Shown one piece after another: positions 127 to 4,521 of a stretch of DNA of 47,983 nt (position 1 is the stretch's first letter; the number at the start of each line of letters is the position of its first letter). Source of the DNA: Candidatus Hermodarchaeum yapensis (GTDB taxonomy: Archaea; Asgardarchaeota; Hermodarchaeia; Hermodarchaeales; Hermodarchaeaceae); contig JAEOSK010000020.1 in the NCBI GenBank assembly GCA_016840405.1, positions 1 through 47,983 on the forward strand, written 5' to 3'. The translations under genes were made by a program, and so were the position numbers. The notes beneath the pieces were generated by a model. That model had not been told where the DNA came from. It saw nothing but the letters and a program-made list of their open reading frames with translations, and made no database searches.

Positions 127-3100
127 TCAAACCCCTGTTTCCTTCGCAAGTTCGCGAAGCCGTTTGAGCATATCTTCTAATCGATTCGCAGGCTCGCCCG
201 AGGTAATTCGAAGTTTTTCGATACGGTCTAGTCGACGATCAGTCAAAGTCCATTCCATTTCACGAATAAGTGCATGAGTGGTATTCAGAGTGTTGTCAAT
301 ATTTTCAATCATTAACTCATCCAGTGGTGGTGTTCGCATTCGTCGTCGACGCCGATATTGGTTTAACAAATATACTCCAACAATCAGTATTGCCAATATC
401 GTGAAAAGGGCGATCTGTAGAGCCATGATGAATAGGTAATTGGGTTCTGGAGGTGGGGTAGGTGTTTCAGGGGCGGGTTCGTAATAGAAGTACATGAACG
501 TTGTAGTGCTTGCATAGGTTCCCGGTAATGAGAAGACGATGATTGAGAAAGTTTCTGTTGTATTTACTGATTCATCTAACCCGGTCCAATTCGCGAATAG
601 AAATGTGCCATATCGGCCACTTAAGACTTCGAAGGCAATGAAAAACTGCTGGGTTCCATTCGGAAAAGTATAGACGCAATACATAGTAAGATTCTCCACG
701 CCCTGTCCTGTGTGATCTAATGCATCGATCACAAATCCAGCATCGTTACCAATAGTGAACGTTGACCCATTCCCGCCAGTCGAGCGAATATTGAGATGCA
801 TCTTATTGCGAAACAGATAATGAATTGTTTGGTTCGCAAACTGCAGATTTTCTAAATTCAGTAAAAGGCGATTCGAAAAAATGGAAGAACAACCGAGGAC
901 AAAGAGTTCTTTCTGACTTTCATTTTGATAAACGCCAAAGGCTGAGCCATTAACCCAGGCAAAGATATTGGAAGACCCCGTCTCAGTGAGTAAGGTGCCT
1001 TCTTCTGTAGAGATGATATTCACCTCAGTGGTGAAGGGGCTTGAAGGGTGTAACTCGGTTGTGTTCAGAGAGGTTACGCTGCCACCGATTTGGATATTAT
1101 AATTTGTTAAAATCTGGTTCAATGTTGTATGATTGGATGAATCTGGATGGTCGGCAAGAATTAGAACCTTGTACCCGTCATCAATAAATTCTGATACAGC
1201 TAGGGTTTCATTTTGTGTAAATCCTTTTTCAGGGTCGCAGATGATTAACCCGTCAAAGAGGGAAAGAGTGGTAGAATTGAGCTCTGAGATAAGGGGAATT
1301 TCAGCTAAGTTCAGCTGGGCTTCGGCATACAATTCTCGAAGCCTAGAATAGCCAGTTAGTAGACTGTCACCAATTTCATCCAGAAGTGAAAATAGTTCAT
1401 CGAGGTCCAAATCTGAGAAATCAAGGTCTTCAAGGTTCGAGAAATCCAATCCTTGATTATGGATTGAATCAAAAAGAATTACACCTTGTGGATAAGTCAC
1501 ATTAATTACGAAGGGCAGGGTGTGCTCCCACCCGTCGGAAGCGCTTATTACGAGATTCCCGTAGTAGGGTCCAGATTCGATAAAGGTCGGGATGAAGAAT
1601 AGGATTTGTAATTGCGTTCCGATGGTAACATCATAAATGTCTGTGGGTGTTATTGTTGGAGGATTTATCCAATTCGTTACGTTTCGATCCATTGGTGTGT
1701 GTAAACCTGGATCATGATATTCAGTTATGCTCACTGAGAGGTGGAAAATGGGGGTTGAAGTGAGTAGTGTGAAATTGTAAATCGCATAATCATTGGGAAA
1801 TCGGAGCATCATTGGTCTATACGGCAAATAGGAGGGAATGAGAAGCCGCATCGTCGGAGGAGAACTAATGAAGACATCCCGGAAGACAAAGTTATCAAGC
1901 GCATACAAATCCGTTGGAATGGTGGGGAGTATAAGGTCAAAGTCTAGGGTTGGAGAGACGATCCACCCAGCAAAATAGATGTCTTTGACTTCAGGAACCC
2001 AATTGACTACAAGTCGTTGGAATCGGAAAGGTTCAAAGATGCCCAATTGGAAGTAACGAGCAAAAATCGCCCCACCCATGGGCTGTGACTGATTGGTAAA
2101 GAAAGCAGCAATGGAATCCACTCCCTCATCACCGATATTCAACACAATGACAGACGTTTGATAGGTCGCATCAGTCATTCCAGTTCGGGGCGAAGAAGCT
2201 CGAATCATACAAAGGTCCGTCAGCGTAGTGGGCATCGTGGAGTATTCGGTTTCGTTTATACCATGAAGAAGGGCGGAGAAATTCCGACCAAATCCTAAAG
2301 TCATTGAAGTCTGTAAGAAACTCGTTCCCGTTGGCAAATCCCCCAATTGCCACTGTGTACCAAACCCCACTCCATCATCACTATCATAAATGCTATTCCC
2401 GTTTAGTGTCTCGTTTTGTAACCGATCACTAACGTCCGAATATGGTCCAACCTCAAAACTGGAAAATGGTGTTGAGGTGTTAACCCCAATGTACTGATCT
2501 ACTCGAGATGTTTCATTCGGAGGAAGGATATCGGCATGTATGTAAAACAGCTGTGATGAACTATTGAAGAAACCTTGTTGAGTTGATGTATCGCTAGCAC
2601 CTGAGAATAGGTCAAAATTCCACAAACTGTACAATCGTATATTCGTCACATTCTCTGTGCCAATGTTCACGAGGAAAAAGGAAATACGAAACGCATTAGC
2701 CGCTGGAGGCGTTGTTATCTGCCAAGACTCAATACGAGGGATTATCAAGAGATCATTATAAGACAATATTCCTGTGGCCCGAACATAATTTCCATAAGGT
2801 AGCCCTGTCCAATGAAATTCTTGTTCAACATTAAGGAATGCAAACGGGAGCACACTACTGTTTCCGACTGCAAGATAGAACATTCCCATCAGCATATGGA
2901 ACATCGACATGTTCGTCACTGAACTTGAGGCAATAGCGGCCATTGCCGTCGTATACCCGCTCATAAGTAACGTGACATTTTCTGACAAGGACTCACTTAC
3001 CAGTATGCCATAATAAGGTAAGCCCAGACCCACACTTCGCGCACGGAATGATGAGGGGAAGGGATCAAAAAGGGAATCCAGCTCGTTGTATGTTGTAGCG

Positions 3101-4521
3101 GCGTCCAATAAGCCTGCGCCTTCTAGATTCGGCTCATTAGATTGTGGATTTGCGCCCTTGCGCATGGCTATTGACATGCACTCTGGTGTAGCGTATCGAC
3201 TTCCTTGGAGTAGTAGACAAGCTGTTCCTGCAGTAAGGGCTGCGGAAGCAGCGGTAGTGCTAGCTATTGTGTAATTTTCGTTAATGGCTGTGCCAAACTG
3301 GCCAAATCCAAACAAGTCAAAATCAATGTCTTCAGGGGAAATCGAAATGTTTCCAATATCTGTAGGTAGGATATTGTAAAGAGAAGAAGATATAATGTCG
3401 ACACCTGGTGCGATCAGATCAGGTTTGGTGCGCATATCAAAGGTTGGACCACGACTGCTGAAATCAGGGACAGAGTTCGTTTCATGATCAAATGCACCAA
3501 CGGTAAGGGCTACCAACGATTCACCAGGGGACATAATTGTCATGTGATTGGGTCCCCGATCTCCTGCTGCCGCGACGACTAGGACACCCTGTTCTGAAGC
3601 TATACGCACAGCTTCGGAAAGTGGGTCACCGGGCATTCCCAAGGTTGAGAACGGAAGAAGAATGATATCTGCTCCCGTTGTAATGCTCCATTCTATTCCT
3701 CGGATAACCCATGAGGAATAGCTTGTGCCATCTCCTAGCACAACTTTGGCGCTGATAAGTTGAGCTCCGGGCGCAATTCCTGTGTAGTTACCTTGTGAAG
3801 CGGCTCCCGTTCCAGCGACTAATCCAGCACAATAGGTTCCATGGCCATTTAAGTCAAAGGGGAAGGGATCCCCTTCAGCAAAGGAGACTTGAGCTAGGAC
3901 CTTGGGATCATTAGTAGTTTCATTGTCATCCATATCATCAAGGTCAGGATGTGTCACATCAACACCAGTATCTATGATGGAAACGATCGTGTGAGACCCG
4001 TTGAACCCCTGATCATAAAGCGGATTAACTCCAATTATCTCACGGGGGTGAAGATAACCATTAGGCACAACCATCTGACTATGGTGAATAGAATGGTCAC
4101 TGGTATCGAGATGGAATCCGATATCAGTCCATAATTTTCGAATTTCTGGAAGACCAGCTAATTGGTGTAAGGCGCCTACCGTGGTTCTGAGAGAAATGGC
4201 GTGCACAATATTATGGTAAATCTTGATATTCGTCAACGTAGCTTTTTGTAGAATCGCTCGTTGAGCAGCTCTCCAATCAGTGGTCTCAGATAGGCTTGCG
4301 ATAATGTCAATGGGGAGATCCGGTTCGCTTCCCGATTCAATGAGCTCGAGTAACGGTTTCGAGAGTTTCGACTCCGCCTCATCAGTTTCCAAGAAAGTGT
4401 TTGCAAGGTTTATGGAGGCAAGGTCAGCTTGAATTAGGGGAATCAGAAGTATGACGGTTGCGAGTAAAAGGACCTGATATCTTGGTTTCTGAATCATCCC
4501 TTTCATCGTCTGTTGCCGCAA
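127..4521 (-). CDS. Membrane-anchored S8 subtilase-family protein with C-terminal GIFT (GldG/IFT52/S1P-like) domain; probable pseudoprotease
   Basis: N-terminal signal peptide and prodomain; IIDTG (Asp) and HGTYCAG (His) present; AAAGD replaces AAGN; YTIASTTAASAALTAG replaces SGTSMAxPxVAG; FSSRGP and KPDLIAPG; ILFDSIHN...DPEKGF GIFT-like segment; Pro linker, TM helix, RRRRR stop-transfer, helical tail. Confidence 0.85.
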   Translation of the reverse strand: MRQQTMKGMIQKPRYQVLLLATVILLIPLIQADLASINLANTFLETDEAESKLSKPLLELIESGSEPDLPIDIIASLSETTDWRAAQRAILQKATLTNIKIYHNIVHAISLRTTVGALHQLAGLPEIRKLWTDIGFHLDTSDHSIHHSQMVVPNGYLHPREIIGVNPLYDQGFNGSHTIVSIIDTGVDVTHPDLDDMDDNETTNDPKVLAQVSFAEGDPFPFDLNGHGTYCAGLVAGTGAASQGNYTGIAPGAQLISAKVVLGDGTSYSSWVIRGIEWSITTGADIILLPFSTLGMPGDPLSEAVRIASEQGVLVVAAAGDRGPNHMTIMSPGESLVALTVGAFDHETNSVPDFSSRGPTFDMRTKPDLIAPGVDIISSSLYNILPTDIGNISISPEDIDFDLFGFGQFGTAINENYTIASTTAASAALTAGTACLLLQGSRYATPECMSIAMRKGANPQSNEPNLEGAGLLDAATTYNELDSLFDPFPSSFRARSVGLGLPYYGILVSESLSENVTLLMSGYTTAMAAIASSSVTNMSMFHMLMGMFYLAVGNSSVLPFAFLNVEQEFHWTGLPYGNYVRATGILSYNDLLIIPRIESWQITTPPAANAFRISFFLVNIGTENVTNIRLYSLWNFDLFSGASDTSTQQGFFNSSSQLFYIHADILPPNETSRVDQYIGVNTSTPFSSFEVGPYSDVSDRLQNETLNGNSIYDSDDGVGFGTQWQLGDLPTGTSFLQTSMTLGFGRNFSALLHGINETEYSTMPTTLTDLCMIRASSPRTGMTDATYQTSVIVLNIGDEGVDSIAAFFTNQSQPMGGAIFARYFQLGIFEPFRFQRLVVNWVPEVKDIYFAGWIVSPTLDFDLILPTIPTDLYALDNFVFRDVFISSPPTMRLLIPSYLPYRPMMLRFPNDYAIYNFTLLTSTPIFHLSVSITEYHDPGLHTPMDRNVTNWINPPTITPTDIYDVTIGTQLQILFFIPTFIESGPYYGNLVISASDGWEHTLPFVINVTYPQGVILFDSIHNQGLDFSNLEDLDFSDLDLDELFSLLDEIGDSLLTGYSRLRELYAEAQLNLAEIPLISELNSTTLSLFDGLIICDPEKGFTQNETLAVSEFIDDGYKVLILADHPDSSNHTTLNQILTNYNIQIGGSVTSLNTTELHPSSPFTTEVNIISTEEGTLLTETGSSNIFAWVNGSAFGVYQNESQKELFVLGCSSIFSNRLLLNLENLQFANQTIHYLFRNKMHLNIRSTGGNGSTFTIGNDAGFVIDALDHTGQGVENLTMYCVYTFPNGTQQFFIAFEVLSGRYGTFLFANWTGLDESVNTTETFSIIVFSLPGTYASTTTFMYFYYEPAPETPTPPPEPNYLFIMALQIALFTILAILIVGVYLLNQYRRRRRMRTPPLDELMIENIDNTLNTTHALIREMEWTLTDRRLDRIEKLRITSGEPANRLEDMLKRLRELAKETGV

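What the first reader, a model, noticed from the sequence alone, without database searches (positions are those of the whole stretch)
127..4521. Archaeal protein with eukaryotic site-1 protease (MBTPS1/SKI-1)-like architecture
The order signal peptide - prodomain - S8 - beta region - GIFT - TM - basic tail mirrors S1P. The segment VILFDSIHN...GDSLLTGYSRL...GLIICDPEKGFTQNE...DDGYKVLILAD...LNQIL (about 1100-1485) parallels the S1P motifs as I recall them (VLWDQYHN...GDHIHTNF...[10 protein letters not shown]...[10 protein letters not shown]...LNELL). It could be an under-recognised eukaryotic signature protein.
Basis: partly seen in the sequence, partly recalled or inferred. Interest (0 to 1): 0.75.

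Follow-up and report, generated by a model that had tools for sequence, protein, structure and literature searches.

The report
Dead-protease GIFT subunit of ABC transporter
This Asgard archaeal membrane protein has the same domain order as the human cholesterol-pathway protease S1P, but its protease domain lacks the catalytic serine and its gene sits inside an ABC-transporter operon, so it is more likely a transporter accessory protein than an archaeal S1P.

Summary
The ORF at 127-4521 (-) is real: 1464 aa, intact, single-copy, with full-length relatives in at least 199 Asgard genomes. Human S1P is the best whole-chain structural match in the PDB.

The S1P/eukaryotic-signature reading is poorly supported.
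- The S8 domain is a pseudoprotease: nucleophile Ser is Ala424 and oxyanion Asn is Asp321, across the whole long-form clade.
- The S8 domain is closest to Thermococcus Tk-SP and Bacillus subtilisins.
- The GIFT domain groups with generic prokaryotic DUF4350/ABC_transp_aux domains, then IFT52. The family profile does not find S1P.
- Other prokaryotes also carry S8-beta-GIFT fusions.
- The gene lies between an ABC-2 permease plus a 548-aa ATPase upstream and a second DrrA/GldA-type ATPase downstream. This order holds in nearly all loci, including a distant 1620-aa form.

Best reading: a GldG-like extracytoplasmic accessory subunit of an ABC-2 transporter that uses a dead subtilase as a binding module. 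A Thorarchaeota paralogue (about 965 aa, intact triad, not ABC-linked) resembles S1P more closely. Descent of S1P from this clade is neither shown nor excluded.

The parts
127..4521 (-). Whole ORF, 1464 aa: long-form Asgard S8-GIFT membrane protein (P0001)
   Evidence: Full-length relatives at 28-93% identity.
4423..4506 (-). N-terminal basic plus hydrophobic segment (residues ~6-33): signal peptide or signal anchor
   Evidence: Read directly from the sequence. Cleavage not tested.
4042..4416 (-). Subtilisin-type (I9-like) propeptide, residues 36-160
   Evidence: Profile A10 hits Tk-SP proN (E 0.0023) and the BPN', subtilisin E and Tk-subtilisin prosegments.
3082..4029 (-). S8 subtilase-fold domain, residues 165-480, catalytically degenerate. 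Asp184 and His227 are kept. Oxyanion Asn is Asp321. Nucleophile Ser is Ala424 (codon 3250-3252).
   Evidence: Pfam E 3e-41. HMM alignment to Vpr and BPN'. Column counts. Structure match to Tk-SP at Z 37.7.
1891..3081 (-). Inserted beta-sandwich array, residues 481-877. It includes a glucodextranase/GH94-N-like super-sandwich and is absent from the short paralogue and from S1P.
   Evidence: Model. VIA-align Z 17-21 to the N-domains of glucodextranase, glucoamylase and cellobiose phosphorylase. hhalign shows the short family lacks this part.
1495..1890 (-). Beta-sandwich directly before GIFT, residues ~878-1009. Positional and structural counterpart of S1P's P-like domain.
   Evidence: S1P 479-873 aligns to model 409-759. 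Homologous to the short family's beta-sandwich.
805..1482 (-). GIFT (GldG/IFT52-type, GATase1-like) domain, residues 1014-1239
   Evidence: Pfam tally. IFT52 E 2e-13. IFT52 Z 23.5, rmsd 2.0. 3708 relatives.
478..801 (-). Ig-like beta-sandwich, residues 1241-1348
   Evidence: Model. GIFT plus this domain align with the OST48/Wbp1 lumenal region (Z ~19.5, 299 aligned, but rmsd 13.6).
364..432 (-). Transmembrane helix, residues 1364-1386
   Evidence: Hydrophobic 23-mer.
130..363 (-). Cytoplasmic tail, residues 1387-1464: poly-Arg followed by a conserved helical segment
   Evidence: Alignment A9. Predicted docking on the ATPase N-domain has weak support only.
4529..6175 (-). ABC ATPase 1 (548 aa), DrrA-type, with a ~235-aa N-terminal extension (5471-6175) that has a TrmB-like match. 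It ends 8 nt upstream of the S8-GIFT gene.
   Evidence: Pfam. NCBIfam. Synteny.
6195..7418 (-). ABC-2 family permease (407 aa), first gene of the operon
   Evidence: Pfam ABC2_membrane_3 E 1e-21. Synteny.

Best explanation
The gene encodes the extracytoplasmic accessory subunit of an Asgard ABC-2 (DrrAB/GldAF-type) transporter.

It is a type I membrane protein. Outside the cell it carries, in order: an uncleavable propeptide, a catalytically dead subtilase head, a stalk of beta-sandwiches, a GldG/IFT52-type GIFT domain and an Ig-like domain. One TM helix follows, then a conserved helical cytoplasmic tail.

Shown here:
- the domain anatomy;
- loss of the Ser nucleophile and the oxyanion Asn across the whole long-form clade;
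- the tight, ancient operon with one or two ABC-2 permeases and two ATPases.

Inferred:
- the dead S8 cleft acts as a peptide- or protein-binding module, not as an enzyme;
- the GIFT domain plays the role it has in GldG-type ABC auxiliary proteins;
- the cytoplasmic tail contacts the system-specific N-terminal domain of ATPase 1. ATP-driven movements of the transporter and ligand binding outside would then be coupled. This could be handling of an exported product, or mechanotransmission in the manner of FtsEX-EnvC.

The protein is a degenerate, enlarged paralogue of an active Asgard S8-beta-GIFT-Ig-TM protease family. It is not a functional equivalent of S1P.
For: Pseudoprotease:
- The HMM alignment places Ala at the GTS serine and Asp at the oxyanion Asn.
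- In 33 family members the serine position is A24/T6/S1/L1/V1 and the oxyanion position is D33/33.
- All 28 long-form sequences in the 84-row S8 set lack a canonical triad; the two Hodarchaeales forms keep Ser but have His replaced by Arg. All 14 short-family and all 42 other S8 domains keep D/H/N/S.
- The long forms are one clade, SH-aLRT 99.
- The ORF is intact and single-copy: 16/18 genomes of its own family, 41/43 of family f6 (the family that carries nearly all Thor-type short forms), 5/5 of f7 and 6/6 of f18. This argues for selection, not decay.

ABC linkage:
- Permease, then the 548-aa ATPase, then this gene, abutting on one strand, in nearly all Thor and Hermod loci. In Jord and Frey loci the ABC pair is adjacent but divergent.
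- A second DrrA/GldA-like ATPase follows in at least 47 of 65 loci with room for it. This includes the window's own genome, through the contig C57/C58 overlap.
- A distant 1620-aa form also follows two ABC-2 permeases and a 564-aa ATPase.

GIFT identity.

Paralogy with the active short family: hhalign probability 99.7%, E 3.9e-26, 328 collinear columns.

Tail to ATPase 1 N-domain contact: complex prediction gave weak support, score 0.60 against a best control of 0.00. Runs agree in at least 91% of contacts and partner pLDDT is at least 79. The mark was reached by 58 of 80 solved complexes and 2 of 110 mismatched pairs. Scores of 0.60 or under were seen in only 7 of those 80 solved complexes and in both mismatches that passed.
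Against: - No physical or functional data exist. Operon membership shows functional linkage, not a complex.
- P0001 itself scores below the curated cut-offs for ABC_transp_aux (27.5 against 34.7 bits) and for GldG TIGR03521 (13.4 against 390).
- GldG has no protease domain, so the analogy covers only part of the protein.
- The complex prediction is only a weak pass, and its calibration says such passes are more often wrong than right without a good prior.
- 6 of 33 members have Thr at the nucleophile position, and Thr423 is invariant, so residual or unusual catalysis is not excluded.
- The transported substrate is unknown.
Confidence: 0.55

Rival explanations
1. Evolutionary S1P relative (eukaryotic signature protein). 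The S8-beta-sandwich-GIFT-TM fusion arose once, in Asgard archaea or their ancestors, and eukaryotic S1P descends from that clade. The window's protein would then be an inactivated, ABC-coupled paralogue of the S1P ancestor.
For: - S1P is the top whole-chain Foldseek hit.
- S1P's P-like plus GIFT domains align collinearly with this protein.
- The ESM Atlas feature search puts the eukaryotic MBTPS1 cluster third, after two Asgard clusters (score 0.86, 160 shared features; a lead only).
- The short paralogue has an intact triad, the same domain order and about 965 aa.
- The short paralogue's non-S8 profile weakly finds the S1P GIFT motif (E 0.011).
- MBTPS1_4th matches 25/25 short-family members, best E 1.9e-6.
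Against: - The family profile finds IFT52 (E 2e-13) but not S1P at E<=10.
- MBTPS1_4th matches only 5/33 long-form members weakly. No MBTPS1_3rd hit was seen.
- For both families, DUF4350 and ABC_transp_aux score better than MBTPS1_4th.
- The short family's S8 scores 186 bits to Tk-SP, about 100 to subtilisins and 81 to S1P.
- Other prokaryotic thermitase-CARDB-GIFT fusions hit MBTPS1_4th above Pfam's threshold (29-34 bits), so the architecture is not Asgard-specific.
- The short family was found almost only in one Asgard family (37/43 genomes in f6, 0/18 in the window's own family).
Confidence: 0.15
2. Stand-alone cell-surface protein. It would be a membrane-anchored adhesin, S-layer-associated scaffold or receptor built on a dead protease. 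It would be co-transcribed with the ABC-2 transporter without being one of its subunits, for example as a product-handling factor or as cargo.
For: - It has a large beta-sandwich/Ig-rich ectodomain.
- The nearest GIFT relatives are surface proteins with PKD, CARDB, T9SS or PEP-CTERM modules.
- In Thor loci a ~2270-aa beta-propeller/TSP3-repeat surface protein follows in the same direction.
Against: - Gene order is conserved and overlapping across several Asgard classes.
- The cytoplasmic tail is conserved and has a weakly supported predicted contact with the ATPase.
Confidence: 0.22
3. Still an active protease that uses a non-canonical nucleophile (Thr at 424 in some members, or neighbouring Thr423/Ser426). 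It would act as a membrane-bound processing protease, as S1P does.
For: - Asp184 is kept in 31/33 members and His227 in 28/33.
- Thr423 is invariant, and position 424 is Thr in 6/33.
Against: - Position 424 is Ala in the window's protein and in most members. It is Gly, Phe, Leu or Val in others.
- The oxyanion Asn is Asp in essentially all long forms.
- His is replaced in several members.
- Every active S8 in the comparison keeps GTS.
Confidence: 0.05

Closest known systems
Human site-1 protease (MBTPS1/SKI-1; PDB 8UW8, 8UWC, 9CSD)
   Same: - Same order of modules: signal, prodomain, S8, beta-sandwich, GIFT, TM, basic cytoplasmic tail.
- Best whole-chain structural match in the PDB.
- S1P's P-like plus GIFT domains align collinearly.
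   Different: - S1P has the active triad D218/H249/S414 and oxyanion N338. Here Ser is Ala and Asn is Asp.
- About 400 extra residues of beta-domains lie between S8 and the P-like domain.
- An extra Ig-like domain and a longer helical tail are present.
- Only 12-13% identity.
- The family profile gives no S1P hit.
- The gene is encoded in an ABC-2 operon.
GldG and the GldA/GldF/GldG gliding-associated ABC transporter; Pfam ABC_transp_aux (PF09822)
   Same: - A GIFT-type domain in a membrane-anchored extracytoplasmic protein.
- Encoded with an ABC-2 permease and DrrA/GldA-type ATPases.
   Different: - GldG has no subtilase or beta-sandwich head.
- P0001 scores below the curated cut-offs for PF09822 and TIGR03521.
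- This is an archaeal system with two ATPases, one carrying a TrmB-like N-domain.
IFT52 N-terminal GIFT domain (PDB 5FMS, 5FMR, 8BD7)
   Same: Closest solved GIFT domain by sequence profile (E 2e-13) and by structure (Z 23.5, rmsd 2.0, 18% id).
   Different: - IFT52 is a cytoplasmic intraflagellar-transport subunit without S8, TM or an ABC context.
- Hundreds of prokaryotic GIFT domains score higher than IFT52.
Tk-SP subtilisin homologue of Thermococcus kodakarensis (PDB 3AFG, 9UES)
   Same: - Closest solved S8 domain (235 bits; Z 37.7; 39% id).
- Its propeptide is also matched.
   Different: Tk-SP is an active secreted protease with a single C-terminal beta-jelly-roll. It has no GIFT domain and no TM.
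Short Asgard S8-GIFT family (about 965 aa; e.g. P0254, P0061), Thorarchaeota
   Same: - Homologous, collinear beta-sandwich, GIFT and Ig domains (hhalign 99.7%).
- Same TM plus basic tail.
- Its S8 domain lies in the same 50-row clade of the S8 tree.
   Different: - Intact D/H/N/S.
- No ~400-aa insert.
- Not next to ABC genes in the one locus inspected.
- Found almost only in one Asgard family and not in the window's genome.
Subtilase pseudoenzymes (C. difficile CspC) and ABC-coupled dead-enzyme adaptors (FtsEX-EnvC); comparison from general knowledge
   Same: - A subtilase fold that has lost its triad and is retained as a binding or receptor module. NCBIfam CspC_non_triad gives a local match, E 7e-12.
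- The concept of an ABC ATPase cycle driving an extracytoplasmic inactive enzyme homologue.
   Different: No specific sequence relationship to CspC or EnvC. These are analogies of mechanism only and were not tested.

Membership tests
Site-1 protease (MBTPS1/S1P) | Active subtilase triad Asp/His/Ser with oxyanion Asn (human D218, H249, S414, N338) | tested here: not met
   Ser is Ala424 and Asn is Asp321 in P0001. The same degeneracy runs through the whole long-form clade.
Site-1 protease (MBTPS1/S1P) | Domain order: signal, prodomain, S8, beta-sandwich (P-like), GIFT, TM, basic tail | tested here: met
   Met with an extra ~400-aa beta insert and an extra Ig-like domain.
Site-1 protease (MBTPS1/S1P) | Match to S1P-specific Pfam domains (MBTPS1_4th PF23090, MBTPS1_3rd PF23094) at the gathering score | tested here: not met
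   P0001 has no hit at E<=1. MBTPS1_4th matches 5/33 members, best E 9e-4. No MBTPS1_3rd hit.
Site-1 protease (MBTPS1/S1P) | S8 and GIFT domains closer to S1P than to other subtilases or GIFT families (orthology) | tested here: inconclusive
   By similarity rank, not met: Tk-SP and subtilisins far outrank S1P, and IFT52 and prokaryotic DUF4350 outrank S1P. No tree with S1P sequences could be built.
Peptidase S8 (subtilase fold) | Subtilisin alpha/beta fold and Pfam PF00082 above threshold | tested here: met
   142 bits against a cut-off of 21.8. BPN' at Z 36, rmsd 1.9, 256 aligned.
GIFT domain (GldG/IFT52 type) | GATase1-like alpha/beta domain matching the IFT52_GIFT, ABC_transp_aux and DUF4350 profiles and the IFT52 structure | tested here: met
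   33/33, 32/33 and 30/33 members respectively. IFT52 E 2e-13. Z 23.5.
GldG-type ABC-2 transporter auxiliary protein | Encoded with an ABC-2 permease and its ATPase | tested here: met
GldG-type ABC-2 transporter auxiliary protein | Curated family score (PF09822 gathering score; TIGR03521 GldG equivalog cut-off) | tested here: not met
   27.5 against 34.7 bits. 13.4 against 389.85 bits.
GldG-type ABC-2 transporter auxiliary protein | Physical association with the transporter | tested here: inconclusive
   Tail with the ATPase 1 N-domain: weak support, 0.60 against a best control of 0.00. No experiment.

The most novel reading that the evidence does not exclude
The Asgard S8-beta-sandwich-GIFT-TM clade is the prokaryotic source of eukaryotic site-1 protease. 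That clade comprises the active short form plus this inactivated, ABC-coupled long form. S1P would then be a previously unlisted eukaryotic signature protein, and the window's gene would show that the module was already diversifying, including into a pseudoenzyme wired to an ABC transporter, before eukaryogenesis.
Probability: 0.13. Interest if true: 0.75.

Novelty: new variant of a known kind. Interest (0 to 1): 0.42.

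Why it matters
If the best reading holds, several Asgard classes share a conserved, single-copy, four-to-five-gene machine. In it an ABC-2 transporter is wired to a 1460-aa surface protein built from a dead protease and a GIFT domain. This arrangement is not described in the literature searched: no paper in the library mentions Asgard together with the GIFT domain or IFT52. Databases annotate the protein only as 'S8 family serine peptidase', which is misleading because it cannot be a canonical serine peptidase.

The work also sharpens a question about eukaryote origins. 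All three eukaryotic GIFT proteins (S1P, IFT52, OST48) have prokaryotic-looking domains. OST48/WBP1 homologues are already reported in Heimdallarchaeia (PMC10307638). The Asgard S8-GIFT families give a concrete, testable candidate for the origin of S1P, but the present evidence does not favour it.

Tried and rejected
- No S1P sequence could be obtained. The decisive S8 and GIFT trees with S1P were therefore not built.
- The search for homologous proteins with the short-family member P0061: the 120 listed rows were all short-family members, so the rank of S1P among the 2711 hits stayed invisible.
- The first homologue search found no eukaryotic protein among 99 hits, but its candidates are limited by word sharing.
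- Profile of residues 481-1360 against the PDB: no S1P chain at E<=10. A single-sequence search gave only IFT52 at E 0.089.
- In the VIA-align second look at the large model, the list was filled by S8 chains and S1P did not appear in the top 50. That list says nothing about the other domains.
- The ESM Atlas feature hit to the MBTPS1 cluster (0.86) is below the level the tool calls reliable, so it was kept as a lead only.
Neighbourhoods of the Hodarchaeales long forms (P0373, P0374) were not inspected. Contexts were taken with the fetch from genomes instead.
- No tRNA or Rfam family lies in the window.
- A 75-sequence MAFFT run timed out. The 33-sequence alignment was used instead.
- Rejected: gene decay. 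The ORF is intact, single-copy and conserved.
- Rejected: a chance ORF.

Full report
**What is there.** The window opens at the start of contig C57 of an 86%-complete Asgard genome. The nearest database relatives are labelled Hermodarchaeota or Promethearchaeota. The minus-strand ORF 127-4521 encodes 1464 aa without interruption.

Pfam finds Peptidase_S8 at residues 175-470 (E 3e-41). It also gives sub-threshold matches to ABC_transp_aux, IFT52_GIFT and DUF4350 at residues 1058-1231. Full-length relatives (about 1400-1490 aa, 28-93% identity) come only from Asgard archaea: Thor-, Hermod-, Jord-, Frey- and 'Promethearchaeota'.

In a 201-genome sample of the phylum, the non-S8 profile finds one copy in 16/18 genomes of the window's own family. 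It also finds one copy in 41/43, 5/5 and 6/6 genomes of three other families, and weaker long forms in two more.

**Anatomy.** Two AlphaFold2 models were made: residues 481-1360 (pLDDT 78.9) and residues 165-1355 (pLDDT 78.3, pTM 0.72). With the profile searches they give this layout.

- N-terminal basic and hydrophobic signal segment (read from the sequence).
- A subtilisin-type propeptide. Profile hits to the Tk-SP, BPN', subtilisin E and Tk-subtilisin prosegments are weak but all of one kind.
- An S8 domain closest to Tk-SP (Z 37.7, 39% id) and subtilisin BPN' (Z 36, 33% id).
- About 400 residues of beta-sandwich domains, the first resembling the N-domain of glucodextranase and GH94 phosphorylases (Z 17-21).
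- A further beta-sandwich.
- A GIFT domain at 1014-1239. IFT52 aligns at Z 23.5, rmsd 2.0, 193 aligned and at E 2e-13 by profile.
- An Ig-like domain.
- A TM helix at 1364-1386.
- A cytoplasmic tail that begins RRRRRMR and continues as a conserved helical segment.

**The S8 domain is a pseudoprotease.** In HMM alignments to Vpr and BPN', the family's TTAAS lines up with GTSMA. This puts Ala424 (codon 3250-3252) at the nucleophile position. AAAGD lines up with AAAGN, which puts Asp321 at the oxyanion Asn.

Among 33 family members the nucleophile position is A24/T6/S1/L1/V1. The oxyanion position is Asp in all 33. His is kept in 28 and Asp in 31.

In an 84-sequence S8 alignment, every long form lacks a canonical triad. 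This includes distant forms from Ranarchaeia and Hodarchaeales (named). All 14 short-family and all 42 other S8 domains keep D/H/N/S. The long forms make one clade (SH-aLRT 99). The loss is therefore old, and the gene has been kept under selection since.

It is confirmed here.

**Genomic context.** The gene is the third of a co-directional set: ABC-2 permease (6195-7418), a 548-aa DrrA-type ATPase with a ~235-aa N-terminal extension that has a TrmB-like match (4529-6175), then this gene 8 nt downstream.

This order recurs, abutting or overlapping, in practically every Thor and Hermod locus with enough sequence. In Jord and Frey loci the ABC pair is adjacent but divergent.

The first 144 nt of the window are the reverse complement of the start of contig C58. 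Across that join a 331-aa DrrA/GldA-like ATPase follows directly. The same second ATPase follows in at least 47 of 65 loci. In Thor lineages a ~2270-aa beta-propeller/TSP3-repeat protein comes next (45 of 59).

A distant 1620-aa long form in another Asgard family also sits behind two ABC-2 permeases and a 564-aa ATPase.

A GIFT protein next to an ABC-2 permease and ATPase is the GldA/GldF/GldG (PF09822) pattern.

A complex prediction was run between the cytoplasmic tail (1386-1464) and the ATPase 1 N-domain (1-235). It gave weak support: score 0.60 against a best control of 0.00, runs agreeing in at least 91% of contacts, partner pLDDT at least 79. The mark was reached by 58 of 80 solved complexes and 2 of 110 mismatched pairs. 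Scores of 0.60 or under were seen in only 7 of those 80 and in both mismatches that passed. I count this as a modest addition to the synteny argument.

**Testing the S1P reading.**

At whole-chain level S1P is the best PDB match to the S8-to-Ig model (9csd_A E 1.9e-21, 8uw8_A TM by target 0.50, 12% id). S1P's P-like plus GIFT region (479-873) aligns collinearly with the last beta-sandwich plus GIFT (Z 17.8, 312 aligned, rmsd 5.8). So the resemblance is real.

Every test of specific kinship came out neutral or negative.

- The family's non-S8 profile finds IFT52 but no S1P chain at E<=10.
- MBTPS1_4th matches 5/33 members weakly, against 33/33 for IFT52_GIFT and 32/33 for ABC_transp_aux. MBTPS1_3rd never matches.
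- The GIFT-only profile finds 3708 proteins in 1.84 billion representatives. The top 150 all score at least 69.5 bits. Most of them lack an S8 domain (114 of the 147 newly numbered hits). The ten I sampled were prokaryotic surface proteins with DUF4350, PKD, CARDB, T9SS or PEP-CTERM modules, from Ignavibacteriota, Zixibacteria and Helarchaeota among others. IFT52 scores only 52 bits.
- In the S8 domain, S1P ranks below the 60 best PDB sequences and below the 50 best structural matches.

**A closer S1P look-alike and other fusions.** The searches uncovered a second Asgard family of about 965 aa (P0254, P0061 and more than 120 clusters). Its order is propeptide, S8 with intact DSG/HGT/GN/GTS, one beta-sandwich, GIFT, Ig, TM and a basic tail.

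Its beta-GIFT-Ig region is homologous and collinear with residues ~911-1275 of the window's protein (hhalign 99.7%, E 3.9e-26). The long form is therefore the short architecture plus a ~400-aa insert, with the active site lost.

The short family weakly detects S1P's GIFT core (E 0.011, against IFT52 at 3.4e-4). MBTPS1_4th matches 25/25 of its members, best E 1.9e-6, but that is still weaker than ABC_transp_aux and DUF4350. Its S8 domain scores 186 bits to Tk-SP, about 100 to subtilisins and 81 to S1P.

The short family is almost confined to one Asgard family (37/43). It is absent from the window's genome with this query. In the one locus inspected it is not next to ABC genes.

Unrelated thermitase-type S8-CARDB-GIFT fusions from metagenomes hit MBTPS1_4th above Pfam's own threshold (29-34 bits). 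The S8-beta-GIFT combination is thus recurrent in prokaryotes and is not an Asgard-eukaryote speciality.

The protein is best read as the GldG-like accessory subunit of an Asgard ABC-2 transporter, with a dead subtilase head serving as a binding module (confidence about 0.55). Whether S1P descends from the Asgard S8-GIFT clade remains open at roughly 0.13-0.15.

Noticed in passing
window 1-144 and L083 (G000:C58:1-14000): The first 144 nt of the window are the exact reverse complement of the start of contig C58, so the two contigs probably join. Across the join the operon continues with a 331-aa DrrA/GldA-like ABC ATPase (L083:15-1010).
   Followed up: yes
L083:1129-1653 (+): A 174-aa Ras-family small GTPase (Pfam Ras E 6e-48) lies directly after the second ATPase in the window's genome. 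It belongs to a class of Asgard eukaryote-like proteins.
   Followed up: no
L018:14337-21111 (+) and about 45 other Thor loci: A ~2270-aa protein with an N-terminal beta-propeller and dozens of bacterial TSP3 (thrombospondin type 3, Ca-binding) repeats follows the second ATPase in Thorarchaeota. It is absent from Hermod loci. It may be a cargo or partner of the system.
   Followed up: partly
P0254, P0061; loci L086-L115: A short Asgard S8-beta-GIFT-Ig-TM family (about 965 aa) with an intact catalytic triad, found in 37/43 genomes of one Asgard family. It is the closest prokaryotic look-alike of S1P seen here.
   Followed up: partly
P0132, P0134, P0163, P0129 (metagenomic proteins): Thermitase-type S8-CARDB-GIFT fusion proteins whose GIFT domain matches Pfam MBTPS1_4th above its gathering score (29-34 bits). 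Their taxonomy is unknown.
   Followed up: partly
P0373, P0374 (Hodarchaeales long forms, ~1555 aa): These long forms keep Ser at the nucleophile position but have Arg in place of the catalytic His. This is a different route to the same inactivation.
   Followed up: partly
window 7464-8381 (+): A 305-aa ORF divergent from the operon has no Pfam or NCBIfam match. It is conserved at the same place (61-80% id) in Hermod-type loci only.
   Followed up: partly
window 5471-6175 (-): The ~235-aa N-terminal extension of ABC ATPase 1 has a weak Regulator_TrmB match and is conserved across all loci (alignment A8). Its ligand, if any, is unknown.
   Followed up: partly
window 13570-15714 (-): A 714-aa protein with an immune-inhibitor-A (M6) peptidase domain and a C-terminal zinc ribbon.
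   Followed up: no
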